From an uncultured Desulfobacteraceae bacterium (GTDB taxonomy: Bacteria; Desulfobacterota; DSM-4660; Desulfatiglandales; Desulfatiglandaceae), in the NCBI GenBank assembly GCA_964407525.1, contig CAYOWC010000003.1:1588-65587 (forward strand): 64,000 nt of DNA, written 5' to 3'. The position numbers and the translations under genes are program-made. The stretch's first letter is position 1; every line of letters begins with the position of its first letter. The notes under the pieces were generated by a model. It had not been told where the DNA came from. It did not search any database and saw only the letters and a list, made by a program, of their open reading frames with translations. Below, piece by piece: positions 1,023 through 45,440 of the stretch.

Positions 1023-1039
1023 GTGAATAGTCTCCTCAA

Positions 1040-1489: not shown

Positions 1490-1493
1490 GGTT

Positions 1494-1718: not shown

Positions 1719-1747
1719 TATTTCTCTCCGTTTTCCTGCAATCCCTT

Positions 1748-3916: not shown

Positions 3917-3959
3917 TATTCAAGGTTCCTGGAGGTGAGTGCAGATTGTCACCAATATT

Positions 3960-4472: not shown

Positions 4473-4505
4473 TGTATCACTCCAACTCCAAGTATGCTGA
4501 GGCCC

Positions 4506-6590
4506 TTAATCTGGCTTGACCGTTACAAAAGTATTGTGAAAGGCGGGGCTTCCTCCGATCATATCGGATACGTTTTCCATCAGTGACGCATCATTCAGGC
4601 CTTTACTGAATGAACGGGTGGCCCCTTTGGACTCGTGGCCGAAACCATGGAGCATGAACACCATTTCCGGATGGATGAGGGGTGTCACGAAGGCCTTTAT
4701 TTTTCCGGAACCGCAACTCGATGATACTTTCACCCAATCTCCGTTATTTATTCCCATTTTTCCAGCTTTTTCTGCGTTGATCCAGAGGGTGTTTTCAGGG
4801 GTGATTTCATTCAGGTAGGGATTGTTTTGAGTGGAAACATGGGTATGGACAGCGCAACGTCCTGTTACCAACCTGAACTGGTCATCCGGGGGTGAAATTA
4901 CGGAAGCATAAGGGGGAAATGAGCGGTAACCGGCGTCCTTTAATAATGTTGATTCTAATTCAATCTTTCCGGAAGGCGTCTTAAAGGGTATACCGTCTTT
5001 TCTGTCCCACAAAATCTGCTTATCGCCGTATGCGACGAAGCCTTTCGACTGGAAGTCTTCCATGTCAAACCCTGTGCCTTCCAGTTGCCAGGCAACCAGT
5101 TCCTCCATGGTTTCATAGGGAAAATATTCTCCAATTCCCAGCTTTTCCCCAATCTGTTTTAGAATCATGGCGCCCGGTCGCGTGTCATATCGCGGGGTTA
5201 CTGATTGCCGTCTTAAAAACATCTGTGGTTTGAGTCCATTCATCTGTTGAATACAGTCTGTCCTTTCAAGATAGGTGGACTCAGGCAGGATTACATCGGA
5301 ATACCAGGCAATATCGCTGTAGTTGATGTCTATGGTCACGATAAGATCCAGTTTATCCAGCGCCTTTTTTGTCAAATTGGAATCAGGTATGGACATAATT
5401 GGCTCAAAGCGGAAATTAATCAGGGCCTTCAAAGGGTACGGATCTTCTTCGAGTATGGCGTACGGCAGCATCTGGGCTACCCCATGATTGGGATCAGGGA
5501 GAGGGAAATCCGGGGTCCCTACTTTGTCAAAACGTGGAAGATCGATTTTAGGGAAGGTTTGTTCCGTGAGCTTCCTCGCTGCTTTTCCACCGATTTCACC
5601 GGGGCCTTTCTTGAAGAACAGGCCACCTTTTGCTTCGATGCTTCCCATGAGAACATTCAGTATGAAAATCGACCGGCGCATATAGATTTCATCGGTGTGG
5701 CTTGCTCCCCTGTATCCAAAATGAAAGATAACGGAAGGACTGTCTTTGGCCACTTCCCTTGCCAGATTTTCTATCTCAATGGCAGAAATTCCGGTTTCTC
5801 CCTCAGCCCATTGAGGAGTATGGGGTTGTACAAAGTCCTGGAGTTCCTGAAGACCCGTCACCCAACGGTCTACGAACGCGGCATCGTAAAGCCTGTCTCG
5901 AAGAATTACATGGATCAGAGCATAATTCAGGGCCAGGTCTGTGCCGGGCCTGATCATCCAGTAGCGTGAAGATTTTGTGGCGGTGACCGTGACTCTCGGA
6001 TCGATACAGGTAACTTTGGCGCCATTTTCCATGGCATCCGTCAGGGCGTTGACACCTTTCACTTCGATGGCTTCAAAAATATTTCGACCGTACAGAACAA
6101 TGTGTTTGGTATTTTTATAATCTATTCCGATCTGGGCATCCGTATATCCGAAAAGGGACCTTGCTGCCGTATTCACCGAGCCTTTGCACAGGGCATCATG
6201 TGTGAAATGATTGGGCGAACCGATCGCTTTCATGAAGGTCTTGCTGACATGGGTTGCTAACTGTGTACGCTCGCCTAAAGCTACGCTGTGTCCCCCGTGA
6301 TTATCAATGATGTTCCTGAGTTTGTCGCCGACCATGGTGAGAGCTTCCTCCCATGAAGCCTTTCTCCATTGGCCGGACCCTCTGGCCCCGGTCCTTATCA
6401 TGGGCGACTGAACCCGATCATGATCGTACAGAAGGGCTGTCCCGGCGGCGCCTTTCGGGCAAAGGCTACCCTCGATGCCAGGTACATGAGGATTGCCCTC
6501 AATCCATTTTACCTGGTCATTTTCTACGGTGACCTTTATGGGACAGCGAACCGAACACATAAAACAGAGGCTGTATACTTCCTTCTCCAT
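4506..6590 (-). CDS. Molybdopterin (Mo/W-bisPGD) oxidoreductase catalytic subunit, DMSO-reductase superfamily, predicted cytoplasmic
   Basis: A 694 aa protein. The N-terminus goes straight into the 4Fe-4S motif CFMCSVRCP...CPKG, with no twin-arginine leader. The remainder has MopB-like architecture. No in-frame TGA is present. Confidence 0.85.
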   Translation of the reverse strand: MEKEVYSLCFMCSVRCPIKVTVENDQVKWIEGNPHVPGIEGSLCPKGAAGTALLYDHDRVQSPMIRTGARGSGQWRKASWEEALTMVGDKLRNIIDNHGGHSVALGERTQLATHVSKTFMKAIGSPNHFTHDALCKGSVNTAARSLFGYTDAQIGIDYKNTKHIVLYGRNIFEAIEVKGVNALTDAMENGAKVTCIDPRVTVTATKSSRYWMIRPGTDLALNYALIHVILRDRLYDAAFVDRWVTGLQELQDFVQPHTPQWAEGETGISAIEIENLAREVAKDSPSVIFHFGYRGASHTDEIYMRRSIFILNVLMGSIEAKGGLFFKKGPGEIGGKAARKLTEQTFPKIDLPRFDKVGTPDFPLPDPNHGVAQMLPYAILEEDPYPLKALINFRFEPIMSIPDSNLTKKALDKLDLIVTIDINYSDIAWYSDVILPESTYLERTDCIQQMNGLKPQMFLRRQSVTPRYDTRPGAMILKQIGEKLGIGEYFPYETMEELVAWQLEGTGFDMEDFQSKGFVAYGDKQILWDRKDGIPFKTPSGKIELESTLLKDAGYRSFPPYASVISPPDDQFRLVTGRCAVHTHVSTQNNPYLNEITPENTLWINAEKAGKMGINNGDWVKVSSSCGSGKIKAFVTPLIHPEMVFMLHGFGHESKGATRSFSKGLNDASLMENVSDMIGGSPAFHNTFVTVKPD

Positions 6591-6688
6591 GCATCTTTCT
6601 CCTCGATCAGAATGCGATGGTTTTGCATCAAATCGTTGTTTCTATTTAATTCCTGGCATATGTAAAATGTCTTTTGTTTTTCTGAGCA

Positions 6689-6716
6689 TAAAAAAAGCCC
6701 GCCATGGGGACGGGCT
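6689..6716 (-). terminator. Rho-independent terminator ending the Fe-S/NifX-like locus
   Basis: The minus-strand RNA reads aaagcccg-tccccatgg-cgggcttt followed by a U7 tract. It lies 60 nt after the stop at 6777. Confidence 0.6.
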
Positions 6717-6776
6717 TTACTATTCCATTTTTTCCTTTTTGTGTCAATAATGGAAATTGCTAATTGGAAACCGCTG

Positions 6777-7643
6777 CTAAATTTCTATCGCCTCCGTTAC
6801 TTTTTGCCAGAGTTCTTTCACCGAGAGTGCCGCTTCTGATTTTGGATCATATTCAAAAATCGTCTTCGCCTGGACCATGGACTTTGTGAATACGGGATCA
6901 AATGGGACTCTCCCTATTACGCGCATGCCCCTTTCATTCGAAAAATCTTCAATGGCCTGGGTCTGTTCAAGATTCAGATCAAATTTATTCACACAAACCA
7001 GCGCCGGCACCTTGAAATGCGCGGCTAATTGGGAAACCCTCTCCATGTCGTGTCTGCCCGATACGGTGGGTTCGGCGATGATGAGAAGTGCGGCTGCGCC
7101 TCCGATGGAAGCGATAACCGGGCAACCTATCCCTGGAGGGCCATCGGTCAATATCAGGTCCATGCCCTGCTTTTCTGCAAGGGACTTTGCTTCAGTCCGC
7201 ACAATGGTCACAAGTTTGCCTGAATTTTCCTCTGCGATACCCAGCCTGGCATGGATCATGGGGCCGAACCGTGAGTCGGAGCGAAACCACTGTCCGCAGG
7301 TGTTTACAGGGAAATCGATAGCCTTTTCAGGGCAGAAATAGACGCAAACTCCGCATCCTTCACATTCCAGAGGGTCTACCTCGTAGTTTTCATCGATGGC
7401 GTTCCACCTGCAGAGATCTGTACAGCGTCCGCATTCAGTACATTTGTCATGGTTGATGACGGCAGTACTCCCACCCTGAAAATCGTGTTCTTCCTTCACG
7501 TCCGGATTCATGATCAGGTGAAGATCCGCTGCATCCACATCCGCATCACAGAGGACTTTGTTTTGGGCCAATGAAGCAAAAGAGGCCACGATACTTGTTT
7601 TGCCTGTTCCGCCTTTGCCGCTTATGATAACCAACTCTTTCAT
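6777..7643 (-). CDS. MinD/ParA-type P-loop ATPase with an inserted 2x[4Fe-4S] ferredoxin domain
   Basis: It has a deviant Walker A (GKGGTGKTS). An internal CTECGRCTDLC ... CEGCGVCVYFCP insert follows. I chose the ATG at 7643 because GAAGGTG sits 6 nt upstream; the track start at 7652 is a GTG. Confidence 0.85.
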   Translation of the reverse strand: MKELVIISGKGGTGKTSIVASFASLAQNKVLCDADVDAADLHLIMNPDVKEEHDFQGGSTAVINHDKCTECGRCTDLCRWNAIDENYEVDPLECEGCGVCVYFCPEKAIDFPVNTCGQWFRSDSRFGPMIHARLGIAEENSGKLVTIVRTEAKSLAEKQGMDLILTDGPPGIGCPVIASIGGAAALLIIAEPTVSGRHDMERVSQLAAHFKVPALVCVNKFDLNLEQTQAIEDFSNERGMRVIGRVPFDPVFTKSMVQAKTIFEYDPKSEAALSVKELWQKVTEAIEI

Positions 7644-7667
7644 ACAATTCACCTTCTGATATTGGTC

Positions 7668-8516
7668 TTATTCGCTGTTCTTGTTGACAATGTCTTTGAT
7701 GCGATCGTGGAGATTGCGAAATTGCTCCCTGTATTCAGGCAGGGCATCCACGAGAAGTTCTCCCTTTGAGTAGGCCACGGCTATGTCTCGGTCGAACGGG
7801 ATTTCCATCAGGATGGGCAACTCTTCTTCCCCCGCATACTCCCTTACTCGATCATCACCCATATCGGAGCGGTTAATGACAAGACCTGAAGGGATACCTA
7901 AAATCTTGACTGCTTCCACGGCCAATTTGAGATCGTGCAAACCAAATGGCGTGGGTTCAGTGACCAGCAAGACAAAATCTACGCCCTTCATGGCTGCAAT
8001 GACCGGGCAGGAGGTGCCCGGAGGCGCATCAATGATGGTGAGCCCGTCCATTTTTGTGTGAGATCGTACTGCCCGAATCAATGGAGGAGACATGGCCTCT
8101 CCTATCCTTAATTTGCCATGGACGAATTCAAGTCCGTTCTTGGTAGCCATTTCAATGACACCAAGTTCGCGCCCCGTTTCAGTGATGGCATTCTCAGGAC
8201 AGACTTCCATGCAGCCGCCGCAACTGTGGCACATTTCGTGGAATGGGAGCACCGTTTCACCGATTACCACGATTGCCTTGAACTGGCATATATCACTGCA
8301 TTTTTTACACAAAGTGCACTTTTCTTCGTCTACTTCCGGAACAGGGGTCGATATTGTTTCAGATTTGTGAAAAGAAGGGTGTATGAACAGATGAGCGTTC
8401 GGCTCTTCTACGTCACAATCCAGCAATTGGACTTGCTGATCGACAGCCACAGCCAGATTGGTGGCTACGGTTGTTTTCCCTGTCCCCCCTTTTCCACTCG
8501 CGATACTTATTATCAT
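7668..8516 (-). CDS. MinD/ParA-type P-loop ATPase with an inserted 2x[4Fe-4S] ferredoxin domain (paralog)
   Basis: GKGGTGKTT Walker A with a CTLCKKCSDIC ... CHSCGGCMEVCP insert. The architecture matches the neighbouring gene. Confidence 0.85.
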   Translation of the reverse strand: MIISIASGKGGTGKTTVATNLAVAVDQQVQLLDCDVEEPNAHLFIHPSFHKSETISTPVPEVDEEKCTLCKKCSDICQFKAIVVIGETVLPFHEMCHSCGGCMEVCPENAITETGRELGVIEMATKNGLEFVHGKLRIGEAMSPPLIRAVRSHTKMDGLTIIDAPPGTSCPVIAAMKGVDFVLLVTEPTPFGLHDLKLAVEAVKILGIPSGLVINRSDMGDDRVREYAGEEELPILMEIPFDRDIAVAYSKGELLVDALPEYREQFRNLHDRIKDIVNKNSE

Positions 8517-8593
8517 GATTGTATTCGGAAACCGAAATCATGGATTCAAAAAAGTCAAAGACCCTGCAAACCCAAACTTCTGTTTTCCGCCTT

Positions 8594-9031
8594 TCATTTC
8601 TGCCGTTGTTTGACCATGTAATTATTCAATGCTTCCTGCAGGGTTTCCCCTGCAAGAAAAGCACAATGCTCCTCTTCTCCGGGAAGGCCTCCCAGTCTTT
8701 CAAGGATATCCTTTCCCGTAACATAAAGCAGCTCATCCGGAGTCTTATTCAGAGCCATTTCCGCCGCGAAAGAACCGCACACCGCGCTTGACCCACACCC
8801 ATCTGTTTTAAAGGATGCTTCTTTCACCTGGTTGTTTTCAAACTTCAGGAAAATTTCCATGGTGTCGCTACATGGCCCTGTGACTCGTGCGTATCCGTCG
8901 GGATCTTTGATTTCCCCCTGATAGAGCGGATTCTGCCATCTTTCGAAAGCTGCAACGCCATAGGCGTTTTTTGTATCGTCAAAGATTTCTGCCTGGAGAT
9001 TCTTTACAAAATTGTCGAAATCCTCACCCAT
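8594..9031 (-). CDS. IscU/NifU N-terminal-like Fe-S cluster scaffold protein
   Basis: The three scaffold cysteines are in the canonical context: GPCSDTM, DGCGSS and EEHCAFLA. Length is 145 aa. Confidence 0.8.
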   Translation of the reverse strand: MGEDFDNFVKNLQAEIFDDTKNAYGVAAFERWQNPLYQGEIKDPDGYARVTGPCSDTMEIFLKFENNQVKEASFKTDGCGSSAVCGSFAAEMALNKTPDELLYVTGKDILERLGGLPGEEEHCAFLAGETLQEALNNYMVKQRQK

Positions 9032-9057
9032 CTTTTTTCCCTCTGATTACCGTTTTG

Positions 9058-9270
9058 TCAGCTCCTCGACATGCGCTCACCACATTTTGGGCATTTCTGC
9101 TCAAAACAGGGAATACCTCGTTCATGTGGAGCTTTCGTTCCGCATTTCGGGCATAAACAGTCTCCTCCGGGTCCCAGGCCTTTACCTCCGCCCCATCCTC
9201 GGCCCCTGCCTGACTCTTCCTGCCCCTGGCCTTTTGCCACACCCTGCCGACCTTGTCCTCTTGTCGCCAT
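9058..9270 (-). CDS. Small Gly/Arg-rich protein with a C-terminal Cys-rich zinc-ribbon
   Basis: The ATG at 9270 is preceded by GGGAGG at an 8 nt spacing. The sequence is [36 protein letters not shown] followed by DCLCPKCG...[11 protein letters not shown]. The product is 70 aa. Confidence 0.6.
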
Positions 9271-9298
9271 AGTCCACACCTCCCATAGATTGGAAATG

Positions 9299-10165
9299 TC
9301 AGTGAAGACCTTTGTCTCCTTCCATCAATGTTACCACGTCATCCGCGATTTTATTGAAGGCCTTCGAGAAAGGAATTTCCTCATTTTCAAGAATTGACAT
9401 GTTCCCGTCATCACCCCCTGCAACCACCTGCGGTTCGATGGGAAGAGTGCCCAGGAGCCTGAGGTTTTCCTTCTTGGCGGTCAACATCCCGCCATTGGAT
9501 TTGAACAGGTCGATTGTTTTTCCGCAATGGGGGCAGGACAATCCACTCATGTTTTCCACAAGACCTAATATTTCCATATTAACCTGTCTGCAGAAATTAA
9601 TAGATTTTCTTACATCTGCAAGGGATATTTCCTGGGGCGTCGTGACGATGAGCGCTTTGGCTCCGGGAATGGTCTGGGCTACGGTTAATGGCTCGTCTCC
9701 TGTTCCCGGAGGTGAGTCAATGATGAGGTAATCAAGGTCGTTCCACTCGATATCTGAGATGAATTGCCTGATAACACCGATTTTGAGAGGTCCTCTCCAG
9801 ATGGTCGCGGCATCCTTGTCTTCACCCATAAGAGATTCCACGGAAATAACCTGCATATTTGGCAGGTATTGCACCGGTGTTGCTTTGCTGCCCTGGGTAC
9901 CCGGTCCTACATTCCCTTTTAATCCTAACATTCGAGGAATACTGGGGCCGTGAAGATCCACGTCCATAAGCCCTACTTTTTTATTTCTTTTTGCAAGTGC
10001 AACCGAGAGATAGGCTGCTACGCTGCTTTTTCCAACGCCCCCTTTGCCGCTCATTACCAGAATCTTGTTCTTTATGCGGCTCAGGCTTGTCTCAATTTCC
10101 TTGTCCTGCATCTGATGTTGGTCTTTCTGGTTTTGAGAACTACAACTTTGCCCTTGATTGTTCAT
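9299..10165 (-). CDS. Mrp/NBP35/ApbC-family Fe-S cluster carrier ATPase
   Basis: [14 protein letters not shown] Walker A, a DSPPGTGDE switch region and the conserved C-terminal CPHCG cluster-ligand motif. Confidence 0.85.
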
Positions 10166-10281
10166 GGAATTTTAAACCTCCTAAGTGTCTGCTGATTCGG
10201 CAGGAAAATGTTTCTGCCGGGTTGTTTCTGCTGCTGCGTGAAATTAACTTTTTAAAACAATCTGTCAAGAGAAGAATCTCT

Positions 10282-10644
10282 TTATTTGTGCAATCCAACG
10301 CTGCTGCAACCGGGCATCAGAAAGCTTGAGTCAAGGCAAATGCCGTTCGGCTCTTTTGTGAAAGCCTCAAGCACCTGGTTTGCGGATCCGCATACCCAGG
10401 GGATGACTTGAATGCCGGAGGTTTGCAGCATGTCCAGAAAGTTTCTTGAAATGGCGCCGCATATCAGGACATCGATGCCGAGAACCCGAATCCGCGCGCA
10501 TCTGCGAATCACGGCCTGTTCCTCAAAATGGGTTTTGAAACGGGAGAGTTCCTTCTTCCCCTCTATTTCAAGTACCAGTAATGTGGCAGCAGTATCGAAA
10601 ACAGGGGATATTTTCCCTTCCCAGACGGAGATGGCAACTTTCAT
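10282..10644 (-). CDS. NifX/NifB-C-terminal-like (dinitrogenase FeMo-cofactor-binding fold family) protein
   Basis: MKVAISVWEGKISPVFDTA...VLICGAISRNFLDMLQTSGIQV is typical of the stand-alone NifB/X/Y-like domain. The ATG at 10644 has an upstream GAAGG; the track start at 10683 overlaps the preceding gene. Confidence 0.75.
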   Translation of the reverse strand: MKVAISVWEGKISPVFDTAATLLVLEIEGKKELSRFKTHFEEQAVIRRCARIRVLGIDVLICGAISRNFLDMLQTSGIQVIPWVCGSANQVLEAFTKEPNGICLDSSFLMPGCSSVGLHK

Positions 10645-10663
10645 GGAAAACCTTCTGTTTCTA

Positions 10664-11317
10664 TTAGTTTCCCAGACTTTCAATTCTGGTCGTGATACTG
10701 TTTAATTGGTCTTTCAAGGCTTTGATTTGTTCCATCAGTTCTTTCTTCTCGTTGTTTTCCAGGGTGGCAGGATTATCATTCGAACTGGCGGCCCTTGGAA
10801 TTGTTCCTCCTGCTCGGCCCATCCCTCTCCCCATGCCTCCTCCGCATCGGCTTCCCCTGCCCATTCCACCTCCGCCCCCTCTGCCCACGGAGAAATTTTG
10901 CTCCATGGCGACGTTTGTATCCGGGCTTGGGCTTTTTCCTCCGTTGCTTTCTCCTCCCATTCCGTGATGATCCGCAACGTTGGCCTCGGTTGTCGTTTTT
11001 AGATGTCCGGCCTTATATCTTTCAACAGCCTCTTCTATGCTTCCTGCTTGACCCACAACAAGTTCCACACCGGCAGCTTGAAGTGTTCGTACCGCATTGG
11101 GCCCGCAATTCCCCGTAATGACGGCATGGGCATCCTTTGAGGCTATAAACTGGGCCGATTGTATTCCAGCTCCTCCCCCCAGCGCTATGCTTTCATTGTC
11201 AAAAACCTGAAATTCCATATTGTCAATATCTATAATCAAGAAGTACGCGCATCTGCCAAATCGCGGGTCTATCTGATCGCTTAGATTCTTTCCCGTTGAA
11301 CTTACTGCCACTAACAT
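10664..11317 (-). CDS. Fusion protein: NifX/NifB-C-like domain, Gly/Arg-rich linker and a DUF5320-like C-terminal coiled coil
   Basis: The N-terminus is NifX-like (DPRFGRCAYFLIID...VITGNCGPNAVRTLQAAGVEL). The middle is GGGGGMGRGSRCGGGMGRGMGRAGG. The C-terminal heptad segment (KKELMEQIKALKDQLNSITTRIESL) resembles the tail of the protein at 13731-14099. Confidence 0.75.
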   Translation of the reverse strand: MLVAVSSTGKNLSDQIDPRFGRCAYFLIIDIDNMEFQVFDNESIALGGGAGIQSAQFIASKDAHAVITGNCGPNAVRTLQAAGVELVVGQAGSIEEAVERYKAGHLKTTTEANVADHHGMGGESNGGKSPSPDTNVAMEQNFSVGRGGGGGMGRGSRCGGGMGRGMGRAGGTIPRAASSNDNPATLENNEKKELMEQIKALKDQLNSITTRIESLGN

Positions 11318-11376
11318 GGTGCCAACCCCCTATCTCTTGCAGGTTTATAACTGGTGCTCGCTTCACTGTGCTCATA

Positions 11377-11392
11377 AGCATATTTCGTGCCA
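11377..11392 (-). promoter_or_regulatory. Candidate sigma-54 (-24/-12) promoter
   Basis: The minus strand reads TGGCAC-GAAAT-ATGCT, against the consensus TGGCAC-N5-TTGCW. It lies 60 nt upstream of the ATG at 11317. Confidence 0.5.
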
Positions 11393-11556
11393 GACGAATG
11401 AAATCGTATCTTTCCATGACCTCGCTTTCATATGAAAAATTCGGCATCCTTCATTTTCCAGTTTACACTTTTGTCGTCACATCTACCTGCTTTCCATACT
11501 CCTGCGTTGGTGTTGAAACCCCTGTGTACGCACTCTCACCCAACCATCGTCAGGAA

Positions 11557-11640
11557 CCTCCAGGAACTTCGTCCGTTTCCGGAGTCTCGCAGGCTCGCTT
11601 ACCCGGAGTCCCGCGCGGGAATGACGAGACGGATGGATTT
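11557..11640. repeat. Short intergenic repeat, related to the element at 51330-51425
   Basis: It shares CCAGGAACTTCG (11560-11571 vs 51361-51372) and GGGAATGAC (11617-11625 vs 51401-51409) in the same order. It also contains GCTCGCTTACC, the reverse complement of the GGTAAGCGAGC motif seen at 62603. Confidence 0.4.
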
Positions 11641-11969
11641 TGACTTTTTACGAATTTATCAGATATTGACTTGAGGAATATTTGTTGTTGCAGATATGCA
11701 GATCTTTCGTCGATTAAGTTGCAGGTATGCAATTTTGTGATATGGAAGGTGTGTATGGATGAGGCGGGGGCATTACAGGGATCAGCCCCCGCCGAAGAGA
11801 TAAAATTCTGAAAGAAGAATATCCTGCCCTATCCGAAAAAAACTTCATCGCCATTGCCGATATAAAGGTCGCTTTTTCACCCGTATTGCGCACTTCCTTT
11901 CACCATGGGATATCCAAGGTCTTCCATTTTCTTCACAGCGGCCAGACCTGTGCAGTGATTGTTCAATCC

Positions 11970-12215
11970 TTACGCGTGGCCGCAACAACTCCCGGGACCT
12001 GCACAGGTGGAAGGCGGGCCACCGGTTCCGCAACACCGATCGGCGGCATCTTTAGGGAAACTCCCAGTGGGGTTTACGGCGGCATGGGCTGAAACCAATT
12101 TCTTCAGGTTACGACTACCGCAATTCCCACATGCCGCAAGGTCGATTTCATTAGCTGAAAGCAGCATTTCGATAGATTGGCCGCAGTCAAGACATTCGAA
12201 TTCATAAATAGGCAT
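11970..12215 (-). CDS. FmdB-family (CxxC_CxxC_SSSS) zinc-ribbon protein with a Cys/Gly-rich tail
   Basis: The hallmark MPIYEFECLDCG...CGNCGS is present. The C-terminal tail is CCGTGGPPSTCAGPGSCCGHA. Confidence 0.8.
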   Translation of the reverse strand: MPIYEFECLDCGQSIEMLLSANEIDLAACGNCGSRNLKKLVSAHAAVNPTGSFPKDAADRCCGTGGPPSTCAGPGSCCGHA

Positions 12216-12231
12216 CGTTGCTCCTTTTTTC

Positions 12232-12591
12232 CTACCACTGTCCTTCTACATTTGCTTCATCCGCAAGAGGCAATGATCCATCCATGTACGCTTTTACGGC
12301 TTCCTTTATTGTTCCTGAAGCATTGTTGGCGACCCCAATATTCGCGGCTTTCATGCCTTTGAACGCGTTGGGACCGCAAAAGCCGGTGAGCAGGACTTCC
12401 GCCCCTTTTTCGCTGACCATTTGGGCAGCCTGAATGCCGGCGCCCTTGAGTGCATTTAAATTTTCTTTGTTATCAAGGACTTCAAAGTCTAATGTGTCGG
12501 AGTCTACCAGAAGAATATACTGGGCTCTTCCGAAACGAGGATCCACTTCAGAGTCAAGATTTGTTCCCTGGGATGTTACTGCGATTTTCAT
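12232..12591 (-). CDS. NifX/NifB-C-like domain protein
   Basis: The internal ATG at 12591 has GGAGG upstream and begins after the upstream stop at 12608. MKIAVTSQGTNLDSEVDPRFGRAQYILLVD...LLTGFCGPNAFKGMKAANI matches the NifB/X/Y-like family. Confidence 0.8.
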   Translation of the reverse strand: MKIAVTSQGTNLDSEVDPRFGRAQYILLVDSDTLDFEVLDNKENLNALKGAGIQAAQMVSEKGAEVLLTGFCGPNAFKGMKAANIGVANNASGTIKEAVKAYMDGSLPLADEANVEGQW

Positions 12592-12607
12592 TGTTCCTCC
12601 TTTAAAA

Positions 12608-13045
12608 CTATGTTTCGTTCGCTGCAGTTTCCACATTCTGGTTTTGATACTCATCAATGGCCTTGTGCAGAGCTTTGATCGCCAGGCGTGCGCAATGCAC
12701 TTTCTGGTCGGGAAGCTTTTCAAGCTCCTTGTAAAGAGTATCCAGGTTTATGCTTTTCGCTTCATCAAGGCTCTTTCCTTTTGCCATGCCTATGACAGCA
12801 CAGCCTGAAGCTACAGCCCCGGGACAGCCAAGTATCTGGATTTTAGCATCTTTAATCTTACTGGCATCAATATTCAGCGAAACTTTCATTGTATCGCCGC
12901 AGGGCCCTGTAATATCCGTGACCTGATTTGCTCCTTCAAGAATTCCAAGATTCTCTTTTGACTGAAAATATTCAATTGCCTTGTCTGAATACCCTGATTC
13001 AGAAAGCATTTTGTAAACATCTTCATTCGTTTTTTGGTCAGTCAT
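12608..13045 (-). CDS. IscU/NifU N-terminal-like Fe-S scaffold protein (second copy)
   Basis: GPCGDTM, LGCPGA and KVHCARLA cysteine contexts. At 145 aa it is the same length as the copy at 8594-9031. Confidence 0.8.
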   Translation of the reverse strand: MTDQKTNEDVYKMLSESGYSDKAIEYFQSKENLGILEGANQVTDITGPCGDTMKVSLNIDASKIKDAKIQILGCPGAVASGCAVIGMAKGKSLDEAKSINLDTLYKELEKLPDQKVHCARLAIKALHKAIDEYQNQNVETAANET

Positions 13046-13085
13046 TCAAAAAAACCTCTTTTCTGATAAAGTCCTGGCGCTGTTG

Positions 13086-13472
13086 TTACTGAGCGCCGCC
13101 TCCGCCACCACATACCTGATCATCCCCAATCTCTGACAATTTTCCTTCTATGAGATCATCTACTACAGGTCTTATCTGAGATCTGGTGTCATCATGAAAC
13201 ACGTTTACACCAGCCTGTTTAAAACCCATCAGCGGTCGCATTCCTATTCCGCCTACAATCAAGGCGTTGACATTATGGCTTGCCAGCAGATTTACCGGTA
13301 CCATGCATCCCCCCTGGACGTGGCTCTGGTTGGGGATGGTTGTTACCTGTTTGATCTCTCCGCCTTCCACATCTACAAAGGTGAAAACGTCACAGTGTCC
13401 AAAATGTCCTGATCGTTCACCATCAAGGCCGCCTGTTCCCATACTTGGTATGGCAATTCTTCCATCCTGCAT
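13086..13472 (-). CDS. NifX/NifB-C-like domain protein
   Basis: HFGHCDVFTFVDVEGGEI...ALIVGGIGMRPLMGFKQAGVNV matches the NifB/X/Y-like fold family. Confidence 0.75.
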   Translation of the reverse strand: MQDGRIAIPSMGTGGLDGERSGHFGHCDVFTFVDVEGGEIKQVTTIPNQSHVQGGCMVPVNLLASHNVNALIVGGIGMRPLMGFKQAGVNVFHDDTRSQIRPVVDDLIEGKLSEIGDDQVCGGGGGAQ

Positions 13473-13563
13473 TTTAAAAACCTCCCTTTAATAAAAAAAT
13501 TGATAAAAATGATGTAACCCGGTGTTGGGTTGTTTCCTTTTGAAGACCATTCCGAAATTCACA

Positions 13564-13579
13564 TGCATATTGTGTGCCA
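13564..13579 (-). promoter_or_regulatory. Candidate sigma-54 (-24/-12) promoter
   Basis: The minus strand reads TGGCAC-ACAAT-ATGCA. It lies 92 nt upstream of the ATG at 13472 and just downstream of the terminator at 13673-13710. Confidence 0.5.
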
Positions 13580-13672
13580 TGATTTTCGGAGTTGGGTTCG
13601 GTAAGGAAAGGTGCTTTTATCTTCATTGTACTAAACCCACTTGTTTCAGGCTTCCAAAATTGATGACCCTGC

Positions 13673-13710
13673 TAAAAAAATGTGCCTGAACAAGTTTTCA
13701 GTCCAGGCAC
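13673..13710 (-). terminator. Rho-independent terminator after the DUF134-DUF5320 pair
   Basis: The minus-strand RNA reads gugccugga-(11 nt loop)-uucaggcac, a 9 bp stem including one G-U pair, followed by U7. It starts 20 nt after the stop at 13731. Confidence 0.6.
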
Positions 13711-13730
13711 AAATGACTCAACGTGATTGT

Positions 13731-14099
13731 TCAGGAAGACTTTCTTTGCAAATCTGCAATAGATTTTCGAACGCCTTCCAGGGTGTTTTTTAACCCTTCG
13801 ATCTCCATTCGGAGAGACTCGGCTTCATTGGAAATATTCCCTGCATGAATGGATCTCTGATTTTGAAGCTCGTTGTCGTTTCCCGGTCCAGCGAAACCGT
13901 CTAAACGATCGGGCCTCCATTCCGCCATGCTTCTCTTTCGGCCAAATCCCTGTCCAAAACCTCTTCCAAGACCACGGCCACCTAGGTTTCCTCTGTTGGC
14001 GACCTGTTCACTCCCACGGCCTGATGGAGTGCAATATCCTCTGCCTCCCCCCGTCATGGGACCTCTACCCATGGGTCCTGTTCCATTAAATCCCGGCAT
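13731..14099 (-). CDS. DUF5320-family protein (Gly/Arg-rich N-terminal part, C-terminal coiled coil)
   Basis: MPGFNGTGPMGRGPMTGGGRGYC is the characteristic DUF5320 N-terminus. A C-terminal heptad segment follows (EAESLRMEIEGLKNTLEGVRKSIADLQ). The ATG at 14099 has GGAGG 8 nt upstream. Confidence 0.7.
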   Translation of the reverse strand: MPGFNGTGPMGRGPMTGGGRGYCTPSGRGSEQVANRGNLGGRGLGRGFGQGFGRKRSMAEWRPDRLDGFAGPGNDNELQNQRSIHAGNISNEAESLRMEIEGLKNTLEGVRKSIADLQRKSS

Positions 14100-14114
14100 A
14101 TCAATCACCTCCTT

Positions 14115-14450
14115 TCAAAGTGGTCCGCACGGACCGCGTCGTTGTTTTCTTCGGCAATGCGGCATTTCAAAGTTCCCACCCTCGATTCGAAGTTCTTTCC
14201 CCATCACCAGCGCTTCCGCTACTTTGGTTCTGGCGTGGCGCAGGATCCTTCCGAAAGTCTGTCGAGAAATTCCCATTCTCTGGGAAGAAGTCTCCTGATC
14301 AAGACCTTCAAAATCATTTAATCGAATGGACTCCAAACCTTCAATGGGAAGAAAAACAGTCTTCACTTCAGTTTCCGAAGTCCTGTTTGGTTGAAACCGG
14401 TTTGCCGTCGGCTGACCCTGAACGAATCTCCTTTTCCGCGGTCTGGGCAT
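14115..14450 (-). CDS. DUF134 (UPF0251) family putative DNA-binding protein
   Basis: MPRPRKRRFV... is the family-typical start. A sigma-70 region-4-like HTH follows (ETSSQRMGISRQTFGRILRHARTKVAEAL). I chose the start at 14450 because GGAGG lies 5 nt upstream; the track start at 14513 is a TTG. Confidence 0.75.
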   Translation of the reverse strand: MPRPRKRRFVQGQPTANRFQPNRTSETEVKTVFLPIEGLESIRLNDFEGLDQETSSQRMGISRQTFGRILRHARTKVAEALVMGKELRIEGGNFEMPHCRRKQRRGPCGPL

Positions 14451-14823
14451 CATCTCCTCCTGATCGTTATGATCATACGACCATAAGGTAGTGTGTGGAA
14501 GCGGCATTGTCAAGGGTAATTATGAGCATTTGACCAAAAAGGTTTCCCGTGAAGTGGAAATTTTTGGGGAATTTTTCATACGAAGGGGTGAAGATCAGAT
14601 GTTTTTGCTGTAATTTATCAATAAGTTGGGGCGGAATTTATCCGTAAGATTTTTATAAAAGGCTTACGCCTGAACTCCAAGAAGACAATGGCTTTTCAAG
14701 CGGTTTTGAGGAGTGTCCAACGTGAAAAGGTCGTTCCAGGAGGCGGGCAGGGCCAGAGTTTTCATCTCCCGTTCTGGTCAGTGTTTACTCTGAAAGGGGT
14801 GGTGTTCTTAGAACGCTATTGGA

Positions 14824-32938: not shown

Positions 32939-32993
32939 AAAATTTATTTCCCATTTTCCTGTGTATTGCCAAGTTGAAGATTAGGACCATGGA

Positions 32994-34721: not shown

Positions 34722-34733
34722 GAGGCAATCATA

Positions 34734-37122: not shown

Positions 37123-37123
37123 A

Positions 37124-45081: not shown

Positions 45082-45082
45082 T

Positions 45083-45436: not shown

Positions 45437-45440
45437 GGAA

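What the first reader, a model, noticed from the sequence alone, without database searches (positions are those of the whole stretch)
6777..14450. 13-gene co-directional NifX-like / IscU / Mrp / MinD-ferredoxin / DUF134 / DUF5320 locus: a metallocluster-handling system with no known client
Thirteen minus-strand genes are packed into about 7.7 kb. In transcription order they are:
- DUF134 (HTH), then DUF5320
- NifX-like, IscU-like, NifX-like, then an FmdB zinc ribbon
- a NifX-like::DUF5320 fusion, NifX-like, then an Mrp/NBP35 ATPase
- an RGG zinc-ribbon peptide, then IscU-like
- two MinD-type ATPases carrying inserted 2x[4Fe-4S] domains

That gives five NifB-C/NifX-fold domains, which in nitrogenase systems hold FeMo-co precursors. 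It also gives two U-type scaffolds and three P-loop cluster-carrier-type ATPases. No nifHDK, nifB radical-SAM core or nifEN is present in the window.

The individual families are widespread in anaerobes. As far as I know, no function or client enzyme has been assigned to the ensemble. The architecture (scaffolds, carriers, cofactor-binding modules and a dedicated putative regulator) looks like an assembly or trafficking line for a complex Fe-S or heterometal cluster. The locus sits beside an unassigned cytoplasmic Mo/W enzyme operon and about 20 kb from dsrAB.
Basis: partly seen in the sequence, partly recalled or inferred. Interest (0 to 1): 0.78.

Follow-up and report, generated by a model that had tools for sequence, protein, structure and literature searches.

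The report
Expanded orange-protein (ORP) iron-sulfur gene cluster
This is a real gene cluster conserved across many anaerobic bacteria and archaea: an enlarged version of the 'orange protein' (ORP) metal-sulfur system known from Desulfovibrio, whose cellular job is still unsettled, so it is a new variant of a known system rather than a new one.

Summary
All 13 minus-strand genes exist and every domain call holds, except that there are four NifX-fold domains, not five.

The ensemble is not unassigned. It is an expanded version of the Desulfovibrio ORP system:
- g5 matches the D. gigas orange protein (PDB 2WFB, E 2e-26).
- g12 and g13 are the paired MinD-type ATPases with a 2x[4Fe-4S] insert (Orp4/Orp3 type).
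- g9 is an MrpORP-type Mrp carrier. Its usually fused NifX domain is here the separate gene g3.

Like the Desulfovibrio orp operons, the locus carries sigma54 promoters, one before g3 and one before g7. Each lies downstream of a TTGCA-N4-TGCAA palindrome, and both elements are conserved in two relatives. With a terminator after g2, this gives three transcription units, not one operon.

In 80 related loci from about a dozen phyla, including Asgard archaea, the ATPase pair plus NifX genes is near-universal. Mrp, FmdB, IscU, DUF134 and Arg/Gly-tailed proteins recur. The neighbouring Mo enzyme does not, and no nif genes are in the window.

The most likely role is low-redox Fe-S or metal-sulfide assembly, carriage and IssA-like storage. 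The extras here are two IscU scaffolds, three RG-tail genes and DUF134.

The parts
14115..14450 (-). g1: DUF134 (UPF0251) small HTH protein, 111 aa, pI 11.2. Putative DNA-binding regulator and first gene of the g1-g2 unit.
   Evidence: Pfam PF02001 at E 3e-23, with a weak sigma-70 region-4-like match. A DUF134 gene lies in about a quarter of related loci and in D. gigas-type ORP loci.
14468..14477 (.). Perfect 10-bp palindrome TATGATCATA overlapping the predicted -10 hexamer of the g1 promoter. Candidate operator.
   Evidence: Read directly from the sequence. Function is not tested.
13731..14099 (-). g2: DUF5320 protein, 122 aa, with an Arg/Gly-rich cationic region followed by a C-terminal coiled coil.
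   Evidence: Pfam PF17253 at E 5e-16. RG-rich window found. Absent from close relative L090 and present in L091.
13673..13711 (-). Intrinsic terminator after g2: an 11-bp stem followed by U7.
   Evidence: RNA fold of -22.3 kcal/mol, z = -3.35 against shuffles. Sequence read.
13746..13759 (.). Palindrome TTGCAAATCTGCAA (TTGCA-N4-TGCAA). Candidate upstream activating site for the g3 sigma54 promoter, about 170 nt upstream of it.
   Evidence: One of only two exact matches in the 64-kb window. Conserved at the same relative position in L090 and L091.
13564..13579 (-). Sigma54-type -24/-12 promoter TGGCACACAATATGCA, 92 nt upstream of the g3 start codon.
   Evidence: One mismatch to TGGCAC-N5-TTGCW. 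Conserved in L090 (TGGCACGCAATCTGCA) and L091 (TGGCACACAATCTGCA).
13086..13472 (-). g3: NifX-fold protein of the type fused to Mrp in MrpORP. Invariant residues are HFGHC27D, GGC56 and C121GGG. Probable Cys-ligated Fe-S binder.
   Evidence: PF02579 at E 3e-19. Best NCBIfam match is the C-terminal Di-Nase part of MrpORP, 49 bits at profile positions 273-364. Conserved Cys/His. The g3 type is the domain fused to Mrp in 8 related loci.
12608..13045 (-). g4: IscU/NifU-N-type scaffold, 145 aa.
   Evidence: PF01592 at E 4e-26. NCBIfam NifU_clost scores 103 bits, below its 187.9 cut-off.
12232..12591 (-). g5: orange protein (Orp8/ORP) orthologue, a NifX fold with no conserved Cys.
   Evidence: Best PDB match is the D. 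gigas ORP 2WFB at E 2.4e-26, 95 bits, full length. It is 47% identical to the ORP genes of loci L087 and L089. Conservation.
11970..12215 (-). g6: FmdB-family zinc-ribbon protein, 81 aa, with an additional C-terminal Cys-rich tail.
   Evidence: PF09723 at E 3e-12 and TIGR02605 at 51 bits, above its cut-off. Present in 16 of 31 complete related loci and in D. gigas-type ORP loci.
11688..11732 (.). Two TTGCA-N4-TGCAA palindromes: 11719-11732 (exact) and 11688-11701 (one mismatch). Candidate upstream activating sites for the g7 promoter, about 300-340 nt upstream of it.
   Evidence: Equivalent palindromes lie upstream of the second sigma54 promoter in L090 and L091.
11377..11392 (-). Sigma54-type -24/-12 promoter TGGCACGAAATATGCT, 60 nt upstream of the g7 start codon.
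   Evidence: Conserved in L090 (TGGCACGAAACATGCT) and, more weakly, in L091.
10664..11317 (-). g7: NifX-fold domain fused to a (G/M/R)-repeat cationic tail and a DUF5320 coiled coil. IssA/'IssX'-like architecture.
   Evidence: PF02579 at E 5e-26 plus PF17253 at E 6e-8. PDB relatives are TM1290, ORP and MTH1175. (GMGR)n-tailed homologues occur in 14 related loci from several phyla. Absent or decayed in L090 and L091.
10282..10644 (-). g8: divergent NifX-fold protein with conserved C62 and C113.
   Evidence: PF02579 at E 3e-8, above the cut-off. No PDB sequence match. In 12 related loci this gene type sits directly behind a sigma54 promoter.
9299..10165 (-). g9: MrpORP-type Mrp/NBP35 Fe-S carrier ATPase, P-loop domain only, with a CxxC motif.
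   Evidence: NCBIfam NF041136 MrpORP scores 381.7 bits over profile positions 1-253 of 365, against 220.8 bits for ApbC. PDB relatives are Cfd1 and ApbC.
9058..9270 (-). g10: 70-aa protein with an Arg/Gly-rich N-terminus and a six-Cys/one-His ribbon. Candidate equivalent of the small Fe-S protein Orp5.
   Evidence: Six Cys are invariant in 21 homologues. It lies immediately upstream of the ATPase pair (or of an IscU gene preceding it) in many loci. It is fused to a NifX domain in L056. Equivalence to Orp5 is inferred from position only.
8594..9031 (-). g11: second IscU/NifU-N-type scaffold, 145 aa.
   Evidence: PF01592 at E 4e-22. C54, D56, C79, H122 and C123 are conserved in 20 homologues.
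7668..8516 (-). g12: MinD/Mrp-class ATPase with an inserted 2x[4Fe-4S] ferredoxin domain (Orp4/Orp3 type).
   Evidence: Pfam. The deviant Walker A, eight ferredoxin Cys, C34 and C170 are invariant in 80 homologues. AlphaFold2 model has pLDDT 81.5. Nearest folds are archaeal MinD, ATPase-type HypB, ApbC and Cfd1. It is 52-74% identical across phyla.
6777..7643 (-). g13: paralogous MinD-ferredoxin ATPase, 28% identical to g12. Presumed heterodimer partner of g12.
   Evidence: Pfam, alignment. A g12-like gene is followed by a g13-like gene in 75 of 80 loci. Eight ferredoxin Cys and C177 are invariant.
6694..6718 (-). Intrinsic terminator after g13: a 10-bp GC-rich stem followed by U7. It separates the cluster from the Mo-enzyme operon.
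   Evidence: Terminator scan. RNA fold of -16.2 kcal/mol, z = -2.7.

Best explanation
The locus is an expanded orange protein (ORP) system of an uncultured Desulfobulbaceae-like sulfate reducer.

Shown or directly supported by the sequence:
- g5 is the orange protein.
- g12 and g13 are the paired MinD-type ATPases, each carrying two [4Fe-4S] motifs.
- g9 plus g3 is a split form of the carrier MrpORP.
- g4 and g11 are U-type scaffolds with intact ligand residues.
- g2, g7 and g10 carry Arg/Gly-rich cationic tails.
- The genes form three transcription units: g1-g2 from a sigma70-like promoter, and g3-g6 and g7-g13 from sigma54 promoters. Each sigma54 promoter lies downstream of a TTGCA-N4-TGCAA palindrome.

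Inferred mechanism:
1. At low redox potential and high sulfide, an enhancer-binding protein encoded outside the window binds the palindromes and switches on both sigma54 operons. In D. vulgaris this role is played by OrpR.
2. The IscU-like scaffolds build Fe-S units, probably from Fe(II) and free sulfide, because no cysteine desulfurase accompanies the cluster.
3. The Mrp carrier passes [4Fe-4S] clusters to the ferredoxin inserts of the g12/g13 heterodimer. This step was shown in vitro for the D. vulgaris proteins.
4. The NifX-fold proteins hold labile Fe-S or thiometallate species, either through Cys (g3, g7, g8) or non-covalently (g5).
5. The RG tails bind anionic metal-sulfide polymer electrostatically, as proposed for IssA and thioferrate.
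6. The ATPase heterodimer uses ATP to drive loading, release or reduction of these species, in the manner of the related metallochaperones HypB, CooC and NifH.
7. DUF134 is a small HTH co-regulator, not the sigma54 activator.
For: Identity with ORP components:
- g5 matches D. gigas ORP 2WFB at E 2.4e-26.
- g9 scores 381.7 bits on the NCBIfam MrpORP model, against 220.8 bits for ApbC.
[quoted passage not shown] The g3 type is the domain fused to Mrp in 8 related loci.
- g12 and g13 have the Orp3/Orp4 architecture.
- Loci around the closest relatives of the D. gigas ORP read DUF134, RG-repeat protein, ORP, ATPase, ATPase, g3-like NifX, FmdB. Their proteins are 47-53% identical to g5, g12, g13 and g3.

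Regulation:
- The only two correct-strand matches to the sigma54 consensus with at most one mismatch in 64 kb lie in the two intergenic gaps. About 0.014 would be expected there by chance.
- The only two exact TTGCA-N4-TGCAA palindromes in the window lie upstream of them.
- Both elements are conserved in two relatives whose spacers have otherwise diverged.
- In 80 related loci, sigma54-like promoters are enriched on the cluster strand (34 against 13). At least 16 sit directly upstream of cluster genes.
- These promoters co-occur with enhancer-binding-protein genes (odds ratio 10, p 2.5e-4).
- Literature: orp operons are sigma54/OrpR/IHF-dependent and are expressed only at low redox potential.

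Conservation across genomes:
- The ATPase pair is adjacent in 75 of 80 loci.
- Among 31 loci with at least 6 kb on both sides: NifX 31, Mrp 19, FmdB 16, IscU 14, g10 10, DUF134 8, DUF5320 8.

Fe-S rather than Mo:
- IscU ligand residues are conserved.
- Recurrent neighbours include Fur, FeoB and DUF364 'metal chelation' proteins.
- MrpORP transfers Fe-S clusters to Orp3-Orp4-Orp8 in vitro.

RG tails:
- 44 RG-rich ORFs lie within 4.5 kb of the ATPase anchor in the 80 loci. None lies more than 5.5 kb away, in 363 kb examined.
- IssA is a NifX fold plus a cationic Gly/Arg tail that stores thioferrate.

ATPase class:
- The AlphaFold2 model of g12 is closest to archaeal MinD, ATPase-type HypB, ApbC and Cfd1. 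NifH also matches, at rank 37.
Against: - No direct sequence comparison with D. vulgaris Orp3, Orp4, Orp5 or Orp7 was possible. Orthology rests on the D. gigas ORP structure, the NCBIfam MrpORP model and D. gigas-like loci.
- The orange protein was purified with a Mo-Cu-S cluster, not an Fe-S cluster.
- The only phenotype reported for the system is a cell-morphology defect, and MrpORP localises to the cell pole.
- No enhancer-binding protein is encoded in the 64-kb window, so the activator is unidentified.
- g7's tail lacks the aromatic residues typical of the P. furiosus IssA tail and ends in a coiled coil.
- The RG-tail genes g2, g7 and g10 are dispensable in close relatives, so storage cannot be the core function.
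- Every step after transcription is inferred from homology, not shown for these proteins.
Confidence: 0.62

Rival explanations
1. Molybdenum/tungsten-copper thiometallate handling. The NifX-fold proteins bind Mo(W)-Cu-S clusters like the one found on the D. gigas orange protein. The system would then buffer, detoxify or deliver thiomolybdate or thiotungstate in sulfidic cells, possibly serving the neighbouring Mo enzyme.
For: - g5 is a close homologue of the protein purified with [S2MoS2CuS2MoS2]3-.
- A cytoplasmic PhsA-like molybdoenzyme operon lies directly downstream.
- MoeA, a MoeA-PBP fusion and MobB lie about 30 kb away.
Against: - A strong terminator separates the cluster from the Mo operon.
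- The Mo enzyme is next to the cluster in essentially none of 80 related loci; the one exception is a weak hit in L032. The gene is missing in close relative L091.
- No Mo-related family is among the recurrent neighbours, whereas Fur, FeoB and IscU recur.
- The other characterised NifX-fold relatives, the MrpORP Di-Nase domain and IssA, bind Fe-S species.
Confidence: 0.14
2. A MinD-like positioning or cell-division device. The two MinD-type ATPases and the polar Mrp would place the septum or a polar structure. The Fe-S domains would make this activity redox-dependent, and the small proteins would be adaptors.
For: - Literature: orpR inactivation gives morphological defects.
- Literature: MrpORP is polar, and Orp3 and Orp4 are reported to have a MinD-like C-terminal amphipathic helix.
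- The nearest folds of g12 are archaeal MinD, FlhG and FleN.
Against: - No MinC, MinE or other division gene is in the window or among the recurrent neighbours.
- Scores on the MinD models are far below their cut-offs, 65-68 bits against 202.
- Gene content is dominated by Fe-S scaffolds, carriers and cluster-binding folds.
- The morphology defect could be an indirect result of failing to mature some Fe-S protein.
Confidence: 0.12
3. Ordinary nitrogenase accessory genes (NifX/NafY/NifU-like) serving a nif regulon located elsewhere in the genome.
For: - Pfam assigns four proteins to the 'dinitrogenase iron-molybdenum cofactor' family and two to NifU_N.
- The rest of the genome could not be examined, because the source is a metagenome contig.
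Against: - None of g3, g5, g7 or g8 reaches any NifX, NafY or NifB model in NCBIfam at E<=1e-3. Only the MrpORP model is hit.
- No nifHDK, nifEN or nifB was found among the window ORFs annotated.
- The same cluster occurs in Dehalococcoidia, Planctomycetota, Omnitrophota, Thorarchaeota and Bathyarchaeia MAGs with no nif genes detected in the flanks. nif-specific profiles were not run on those flanks.
- In D. vulgaris the OrpR regulon is only the two orp operons.
Confidence: 0.03
4. Chance juxtaposition of unrelated small Fe-S genes.
For: - The cluster is split into three transcription units, and one long spacer interrupts it.
- Three of the genes (g2, g7, g10) come and go among close relatives.
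Against: - Cross-phylum co-occurrence of the same families on the same strand within a few kb holds in 80 of 80 loci for the core and in 26-61% for the accessory families.
- Domain fusions link the parts: Mrp with NifX in 8 loci, and NifX with an RG tail and a Zn ribbon in L056.
Confidence: 0.01

Closest known systems
Orange protein (ORP) complex and orp1/orp2 operons of Desulfovibrio vulgaris Hildenborough, DVU2103-DVU2109 (Fievet 2011; Pardoux 2019, PMC6345978; Fievet 2014, PMC3897727; Fievet 2021, PMC8359166)
   Same: - Orange-protein orthologue (g5).
- Pair of MinD-type ATPases, each with two [4Fe-4S] motifs (g12, g13).
- MrpORP-type Mrp carrier (g9) and its Di-Nase-type NifX domain (g3).
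- A small Cys-rich protein just upstream of the ATPases (g10; Orp5 sits in this position).
- Two sigma54-dependent operons, each with an upstream palindrome.
- Restricted to anaerobes.
   Different: - The genes are co-directional rather than in two divergent operons.
- MrpORP is split into two genes in different operons.
- There is no OrpR-like enhancer-binding protein in or near the cluster. The palindrome is TTGCA-N4-TGCAA, not GGGCGYRTTTTGCGCCC.
- Extra genes are two IscU scaffolds, an FmdB zinc ribbon, DUF134, DUF5320 and a NifX::RG-tail::coiled-coil fusion.
IssA, the iron-sulfur storage protein of Pyrococcus furiosus (PF2025; Vaccaro 2017, PMC5524996), and its uncharacterised mesophile 'IssX' relatives
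   Same: - g7 has a NifX/IPR003731 globular domain followed by a long, Gly/Arg-rich cationic tail containing a single Cys.
- Its N-domain is similar to MTH1175, the IssA-type template.
- The same kind of tail occurs alone in g2 and g10.
   Different: - g7's tail has no aromatic residues and ends in a DUF5320 coiled coil.
- Thioferrate binding is untested.
- g7 is dispensable in close relatives.
- The IssA papers read here do not discuss a genomic association with the ORP ATPases (a search of the IssA paper for 'operon' and 'gene neighbo' found nothing).
NifX, NafY and the NifB C-terminal domain (nitrogenase cofactor carriers)
   Same: Same fold family (PF02579). All are small proteins that hold complex metal-sulfur clusters and pass them on.
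   Different: - No match to the NifX, NafY or NifB equivalog models.
- No radical-SAM domain and no nif neighbours.
- Occurs in lineages without nitrogenase (own knowledge; not checked here).
SIMIBI-class metallochaperone and reductase ATPases: ATPase-type HypB, CooC, Mrp/NBP35/Cfd1/ApbC and NifH
   Same: - g12 and g13 have the deviant Walker A with the signature lysine, and a MinD/Mrp fold.
- An invariant Cys lies seven residues after the Walker B aspartate. This is the same spacing as Asp125 to Cys132 in NifH switch II (own knowledge).
   Different: - A complete 2x[4Fe-4S] ferredoxin domain is inserted after switch I.
- There are two diverged paralogues rather than a homodimer.
- No solved structure of this architecture exists.
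ISC/NIF U-type scaffolds (IscU, clostridial NifU)
   Same: g4 and g11 match NifU_N and keep the three Cys plus Asp/His ligand set.
   Different: - They score well below the equivalog cut-offs, 97-103 bits against 188.
- No cysteine desulfurase, HscAB or ferredoxin partner lies in the cluster or among the recurrent neighbours.

Membership tests
ORP (orange protein) system of Desulfovibrio | Orange protein (Orp8): a small NifX-fold protein of the ORP type | tested here: met
   g5 against PDB 2WFB (D. gigas ORP): E 2.4e-26, 95 bits, aligned end to end. It has no conserved Cys, consistent with non-covalent cluster binding.
ORP (orange protein) system of Desulfovibrio | Two paralogous MinD-type ATPases, each with two [4Fe-4S] ferredoxin motifs (Orp3, Orp4), encoded side by side | tested here: met
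   g12 and g13 (Pfam). All eight ferredoxin Cys and the Walker A are invariant. They are adjacent here and in 75 of 80 related loci. They are 49-53% identical to the ATPases flanking ORP in D. gigas-like loci. No direct comparison with DVU2103 or DVU2104 was made.
ORP (orange protein) system of Desulfovibrio | MrpORP: an Mrp/NBP35 P-loop domain fused to a C-terminal Di-Nase (NifX-fold) domain | tested here: not met
   g9 matches only positions 1-253 of the 365-position NF041136 model, at 381.7 bits against a cut-off of 450, and has no NifX domain. The Di-Nase-type domain is the separate gene g3. The fused form occurs in 8 of 40 related loci. The components are therefore present, but the fusion is not.
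ORP (orange protein) system of Desulfovibrio | Sigma54-dependent promoters in front of the orp operons | tested here: met
   -24/-12 elements lie at 13564-13579 and 11377-11392 on the coding strand. They are conserved in L090 and L091. This is sequence evidence only.
ORP (orange protein) system of Desulfovibrio | Adjacent cognate enhancer-binding protein OrpR (PAS-[4Fe-4S]) binding GGGCGYRTTTTGCGCCC | tested here: not met
   No GAFTGA-type enhancer-binding protein is present in any frame of the 64-kb window. The upstream palindromes are TTGCA-N4-TGCAA. Such genes are adjacent in 15-20 of the 80 related loci.
ORP (orange protein) system of Desulfovibrio | Small Cys-rich Fe-S protein (Orp5) upstream of the ATPases | tested here: inconclusive
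   g10 has six invariant Cys plus one His and is found at or near that position in related loci. No Orp5 sequence was available, and the homologue search returned only 15 unnamed proteins.
ORP (orange protein) system of Desulfovibrio | Physical complex of the Orp proteins, and Fe-S transfer from Mrp to the ATPases | not testable with these tools
   Shown for the D. vulgaris and D. alaskensis proteins only.
IssA / IssX iron-sulfur storage proteins | N-terminal IPR003731 (NifX-fold) domain of the IssA/MTH1175 type | tested here: met
   g7 residues 1-110: PF02579 at E 5e-26; MTH1175 (1EO1) at E 2.9e-16. Clade membership by phylogeny was not tested.
IssA / IssX iron-sulfur storage proteins | Long disordered cationic C-terminal tail rich in Gly, Arg and aromatic residues | tested here: inconclusive
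   g7 has a GRGGGGGMGRGSRCGGGMGRGMGR segment. It has no aromatic residues in that segment and an added coiled coil. This fits the description of the uncharacterised 'IssX' group better than IssA proper.
IssA / IssX iron-sulfur storage proteins | Binds thioferrate and forms nanoparticles | not testable with these tools
   Requires anaerobic purification with XAS, EPR and TEM.
Nitrogenase cofactor carriers NifX / NafY / NifB | Match to the curated NifX, NafY or NifB family models | tested here: not met
   An NCBIfam scan of g3, g5, g7 and g8 at E<=1e-3 returns only the MrpORP model.
Nitrogenase cofactor carriers NifX / NafY / NifB | Genomic association with nifHDK, nifEN or nifB | tested here: not met
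   No such genes were found among the window ORFs annotated or among recurrent neighbours in the 80 loci. The rest of the source genome is not available.
IscU / NifU-N U-type scaffold | Three cluster-ligand Cys plus the conserved Asp and His | tested here: met
   For g11: C54, D56, C79, H122 and C123 are conserved in 20 homologues. g4 and g11 match PF01592 at E 4e-26 and 4e-22. Both score below the equivalog cut-offs.
IscU / NifU-N U-type scaffold | Partner cysteine desulfurase (IscS/NifS) encoded alongside | tested here: not met
   None was found in the window ORFs annotated near the cluster, and none is among the neighbour families shared by three or more of the 80 loci.
MinD cell-division ATPase | MinD equivalog-level similarity and MinC/MinE partners | tested here: not met
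   minD_arch scores 65-68 bits against a cut-off of 201.75. No minC or minE is present in the window. Only the fold and the Walker A are shared.

The most novel reading that the evidence does not exclude
The ORP ATPase pair, the NifX-fold carriers, the IscU/Mrp proteins and the Arg/Gly-tailed proteins together form a distinct Fe-S economy in anaerobes that uses free sulfide.
- Fe and S would be parked as an anionic metal-sulfide polymer, thioferrate-like.
- Proteins would be recruited to that polymer through RG tails. These tails are also found on a Fur-family protein and on a DnaJ-like protein encoded in some related loci.
- The MinD-ferredoxin heterodimer would use ATP and low-potential electrons to load or mobilise the store.
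- This would unite the 20-year-old orange-protein puzzle with IssA storage. It would also give DUF134 and DUF5320 their first functions.
Probability: 0.2. Interest if true: 0.8.

Novelty: new variant of a known kind. Interest (0 to 1): 0.5.

Why it matters
The ORP system has been studied in Desulfovibrio for about two decades without a settled function.

What this analysis adds:
- The core (two MinD-ferredoxin ATPases plus NifX-fold proteins) is conserved at 52-74% identity from Desulfobacterota to Chloroflexota, Planctomycetota, Bacillota and Asgard and Bathyarchaeal archaea.
- The core regularly travels with IscU scaffolds, an Mrp carrier, FmdB ribbons, DUF134 and Arg/Gly-tailed proteins of the IssA kind.
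- In some loci it also travels with Fur and FeoB.

This context argues for a role in iron-sulfur or metal-sulfide handling under sulfidic, low-potential conditions. It gives concrete, testable links:
- ORP to IssA.
- DUF134 and DUF5320 to ORP.
- A NifH-like switch-II cysteine in the ATPases.

If confirmed, it would describe a widespread piece of anaerobe metal physiology that the ISC, SUF and NIF models do not cover. The specific locus is not a new kind of system.

Tried and rejected
1. Rfam scan of 6000-15500 at permissive threshold. Only a chance-level sRNA hit appeared (E 0.89), so the 652-bp gap holds no known RNA.
2. Search for a sigma54 enhancer-binding protein in the window, using the GAFTGA motif in six frames and Pfam on the large ORFs. 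None was found.
3. Mo enzyme as client. Rejected because the adjacency is not conserved and a terminator intervenes.
4. Terminator after g6. No convincing hairpin (z +0.8). The g3-g6 unit's end is therefore undefined.
5. DUF134 as an alternative to the enhancer-binding protein. The counts lean that way (both 2, EBP only 13, DUF134 only 17, neither 48) but are not significant (p 0.5).
6. Linking g10 to Orp5 by homologue search. Only 15 hits came back, none named or from Desulfovibrio.
7. Fievet 2011 (PMC3133258) is not held. ORP facts were taken from later papers by the same group.
8. Identifying the source organism or genome. Only metagenome contigs were found. The closest named relatives are Desulfobulbaceae MAG proteins at 89% identity, so a whole-genome nif search was impossible.
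9. Literature on DUF134, UPF0251 and DUF5320. Nothing functional was found.
10. Looking in L087 for the window's palindromes. Different inverted repeats are present there, and no common operator could be defined.

Full report
**1. Observation**

The region 6777-14450 carries 13 co-directional minus-strand genes.
- g1: DUF134.
- g2: DUF5320.
- g3, g5, g8: Nitro_FeMo-Co (NifX fold).
- g4, g11: NifU_N.
- g6: FmdB zinc ribbon.
- g7: a NifX::DUF5320 fusion.
- g9: Mrp/NBP35.
- g12, g13: two MinD/CbiA ATPases with inserted 2x[4Fe-4S] motifs.

g10 has no significant Pfam match. It is nevertheless a conserved 70-aa family with an Arg/Gly-rich N-terminus and six invariant cysteines.

Public gene calls on identical metagenome contigs give the same 13 genes. 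They give slightly shorter starts for g2, g10 and g13.

- There are four NifX-fold domains, not five.
- There are spacers of 258 bp (g2 to g3) and 652 bp (g6 to g7).

Context:
- A molybdopterin oxidoreductase lies downstream.
- dsrAB is at 33.3-35.9 kb.
- No nif gene was found among the large ORFs annotated across the window.

**2. Transcription units**

An 11-bp hairpin followed by U7 sits just after g2 (-22.3 kcal/mol, z -3.35).

A search for the sigma54 consensus TGGCAC-N5-TTGCW with at most one mismatch gives three hits in 64 kb:
- One is on the wrong strand inside g9 and lacks the GG.
- The other two are on the coding strand in the two spacers. One is 92 nt upstream of g3 (13564-13579). 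The other is 60 nt upstream of g7 (11377-11392).
- From the shuffle rate of about 1.9 per 128 kb, roughly 0.014 hits are expected in those 910 nt.

The palindrome TTGCA-N4-TGCAA occurs exactly twice in the window:
- Once about 170 nt upstream of the first promoter.
- Once about 330 nt upstream of the second, next to a one-mismatch copy.

In two relatives whose proteins are roughly 77-92% identical to those of the window (L090, L091), both promoters and both sets of palindromes are kept. The surrounding spacer DNA no longer aligns.

A GC-rich hairpin plus U7 follows g13 and separates the cluster from the Mo-enzyme operon.

The locus is therefore three units: g1-g2, g3-g6 and g7-g13. The last two are sigma54-dependent. 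No enhancer-binding protein is encoded anywhere in the window.

**3. What it is**

The core is the orange protein (ORP) system described in Desulfovibrio.
- g5's best solved relative is the D. gigas orange protein 2WFB (E 2.4e-26, full length).
- g9 scores 381.7 bits on the NCBIfam MrpORP model, against 220.8 bits for ApbC. It covers only the P-loop part of that model.
- The missing Di-Nase domain corresponds to g3. Its best family match is the C-terminal part of MrpORP.
- g3 keeps invariant HFGHCD, GGC and CGGG motifs. These resemble the Cys/His motifs proposed to bind the [3Fe-4S] cluster of MrpORP.
- In 8 of 40 related loci the Mrp gene is fused to exactly this g3-type domain.
- g12 and g13 have the Orp3/Orp4 architecture.
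- Loci encoding the closest database relatives of the D. gigas protein read DUF134, a (GQGR)n protein, ORP, ATPase, ATPase, g3-like NifX and FmdB. DUF134, an RG-repeat protein and FmdB therefore also belong to ORP loci outside this genome.

The published orp operons of D. vulgaris share several features with this locus:
- They are sigma54-, OrpR- and IHF-dependent.
- They are expressed only at very low redox potential.
- They encode a complex in which MrpORP hands Fe-S clusters to Orp3-Orp4-Orp8.
- Their physiological role is still called unclear, with a possible link to cell division.
- No later work on the system was found in the library.

**4. Conservation**

At least 558 confirmed loci were found, and the best 80 were kept.

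These 80 loci come from Desulfobacterota, Chloroflexota, Planctomycetota, Omnitrophota, Bacillota, Acidobacteriota, WOR-3, Zixibacteria, Kiritimatiellia, Ignavibacteria, Armatimonadota, Thorarchaeota and Bathyarchaeia. g12 identity to them is 51-74%.

Searching their ORFs with the window proteins gave these results:
- A g12-like gene is followed by a g13-like gene in 75 of 80 loci.
- In the 31 loci with at least 6 kb on both sides, and counting the same strand within 7 kb:

| Family | Loci (of 31) |
|---|---|
| NifX-fold genes | 31 |
| Mrp | 19 |
| FmdB | 16 |
| IscU | 14 |
| g10 type | 10 |
| DUF134 | 8 |
| DUF5320 | 8 |

- The DUF5320 count is an underestimate. Twelve more such genes surfaced among the unassigned ORFs.
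- The Mo enzyme is essentially never a neighbour.

Other recurrent neighbours, with the number of the 80 loci in which each appears:
- sigma54 enhancer-binding proteins: 20.
- An MBL-fold protein: 17.
- TrmO_N+CGGC proteins: 16.
- A radical-SAM protein: 14.
- ARMT1/DUF89: 13.
- A methyltransferase: 12.
- DUF364/DUF4213 'metal chelation' proteins: 8.
- Fur: 7.
- FeoB: 4.

Sigma54-like promoters in the 80 loci:
- They are enriched on the cluster strand, 34 against 13.
- At least 16 lie directly upstream of cluster genes, mostly a g8-type NifX gene.
- They co-occur with enhancer-binding-protein genes (odds ratio 10, p 2.5e-4).

**5. The Arg/Gly-tail theme**

g2, g7 and g10 each have a cationic Gly/Arg(Met) segment.
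- (GMGR)n-tailed NifX proteins recur in 14 loci from several phyla.
- One Clostridia locus (L056) fuses a NifX domain, an RG tail and a g10-type ribbon.
- Across the 80 loci, 44 RG-rich ORFs lie within 4.5 kb of the ATPase anchor. None lies further than 5.5 kb away, in 363 kb examined.

This is the architecture of IssA, a NifX-fold protein whose cationic tail is proposed to wrap thioferrate. It also fits the uncharacterised 'IssX' group. IssA-clade proteins rise in methanogens that accumulate Fe-S nanoparticles.

Among close relatives these three genes are the variable part:
- L090 has none of them.
- L091 has g2 and a 38-aa remnant of g7.

**6. The ATPases**

- Both keep the deviant Walker A with the signature lysine and all eight ferredoxin cysteines.
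- Both have an invariant Cys seven residues after the Walker B aspartate (C170 in g12, C177 in g13). g12 also has an invariant C34.
- The same Asp-to-Cys spacing links the nucleotide site to the cluster ligand Cys132 in NifH (own knowledge).
- An AlphaFold2 model of g12 (pLDDT 81.5) is closest to archaeal MinD, FlhG/FleN, ATPase-type HypB (TM 0.6-0.7), ApbC and Cfd1. NifH appears further down the list.
- No structure of this fusion has been solved.

**7. Mechanism**

The best-supported reading is a low-redox, sulfide-adapted machine that handles metal-sulfur clusters. Its proposed parts are:
- U-type scaffolds, with no accompanying desulfurase.
- An Mrp carrier.
- NifX-fold holders.
- An ATP-driven MinD-ferredoxin heterodimer.
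- An optional IssA-like RG-tail storage module.

Only the Mrp-to-ATPase cluster transfer, and the redox and sigma54 control, have experimental support, and that support comes from Desulfovibrio.

Rival readings:
- Mo/W-Cu thiometallate handling, which rests on the cluster found on purified ORP.
- A MinD-like positioning role, which rests on the morphology phenotype.
- A nitrogenase accessory role. This is effectively excluded.
- Chance juxtaposition. This is also excluded.

**8. Verdict**

It is an enlarged, rearranged member of a known but functionally unresolved system, not an unrecognised one.

The new points are:
- The systematic association of DUF134, DUF5320/RG-tail proteins, FmdB and IscU with the ORP core.
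- The split MrpORP.
- The sigma54 promoters with a different palindrome and no local activator.
- The link to IssA-type storage.

Noticed in passing
window 261-6590 (minus strand): The operon next to the cluster encodes a PhsA/PsrA-like molybdopterin subunit that has no Tat signal. Its NCBIfam PhsA score is 623.7 bits, just under the 694 cut-off, and the match starts at profile position 41. The operon also encodes a DmsB-like 4x[4Fe-4S] subunit, a 722-aa GltD-like NAD(P)H/FAD subunit, a CBS-domain protein and a Fer2/Fer4 protein. This looks like a cytoplasmic NAD(P)H-linked thiosulfate/polysulfide-type reductase.
   Followed up: partly
window 14824-17046 (minus strand): A 740-aa PilB/GspE-type secretion ATPase (MshEN + T2SSE) carries a C-terminal response-regulator receiver domain. 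It lies directly upstream of the cluster, and this position is conserved in L090 and L091.
   Followed up: no
window 41894-46010 (plus strand): A Moco-insertion gene set: MoeA, a MoeA fused to a periplasmic-binding-protein-like (PBP_like) domain, and MobB.
   Followed up: no
window 31547-35921: dsrAB (two NIR_SIR proteins, 33303-35921) is preceded on the opposite strand by a CobB/CbiA-type amidotransferase, which resembles DsrN.
   Followed up: no
window 37100-37786 and 58471-59193: Two proteins carry the CxxCxxCC 'zinc- or iron-chelating' domain (PF03692), one of them just downstream of the dsr region.
   Followed up: no
L056:9407-9997: In a Clostridia MAG, one ORF combines a NifX domain, an RG-rich tail and a g10-type CxCPxC ribbon. 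This is a fusion linking g7-like and g10-like modules.
   Followed up: partly
L034:3691-4161 and L047:10084-10392: A Fur-family regulator with an N-terminal RG-rich extension, and a DnaJ-like J-domain protein with a GRGRGGGG tail, are encoded inside ORP-type clusters of other phyla. RG tails are therefore not limited to NifX or DUF5320 proteins.
   Followed up: partly
L091 (ENA contig_272), e.g. 1321-2656 and 10854-11745: Several genes in this close relative are split: purD into 256 + 197 aa, and the g13 orthologue into 227 + 84 aa. The Mo-enzyme gene is missing. These could be long-read frameshift errors or real decay, so gene absences in this contig should be read with care.
   Followed up: no
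window 11393-11969: About 580 bp of non-coding DNA lie upstream of the second sigma54 promoter, with no Rfam match and no convincing ORF. Only the palindromes at 11688-11732 are explained. The equivalent spacer is even longer (1137 bp) in L090.
   Followed up: partly
window 14115-14160 (C-terminus of g1) and L087:9230-9355: DUF134 proteins in these loci end in short Arg/Cys/Gly-rich tails: HCRRKQRRGPCGPL here and CRGRGRGCRRR in L087. This echoes the RG tails of the neighbouring genes. The Cys residues are not conserved across the family.
   Followed up: no
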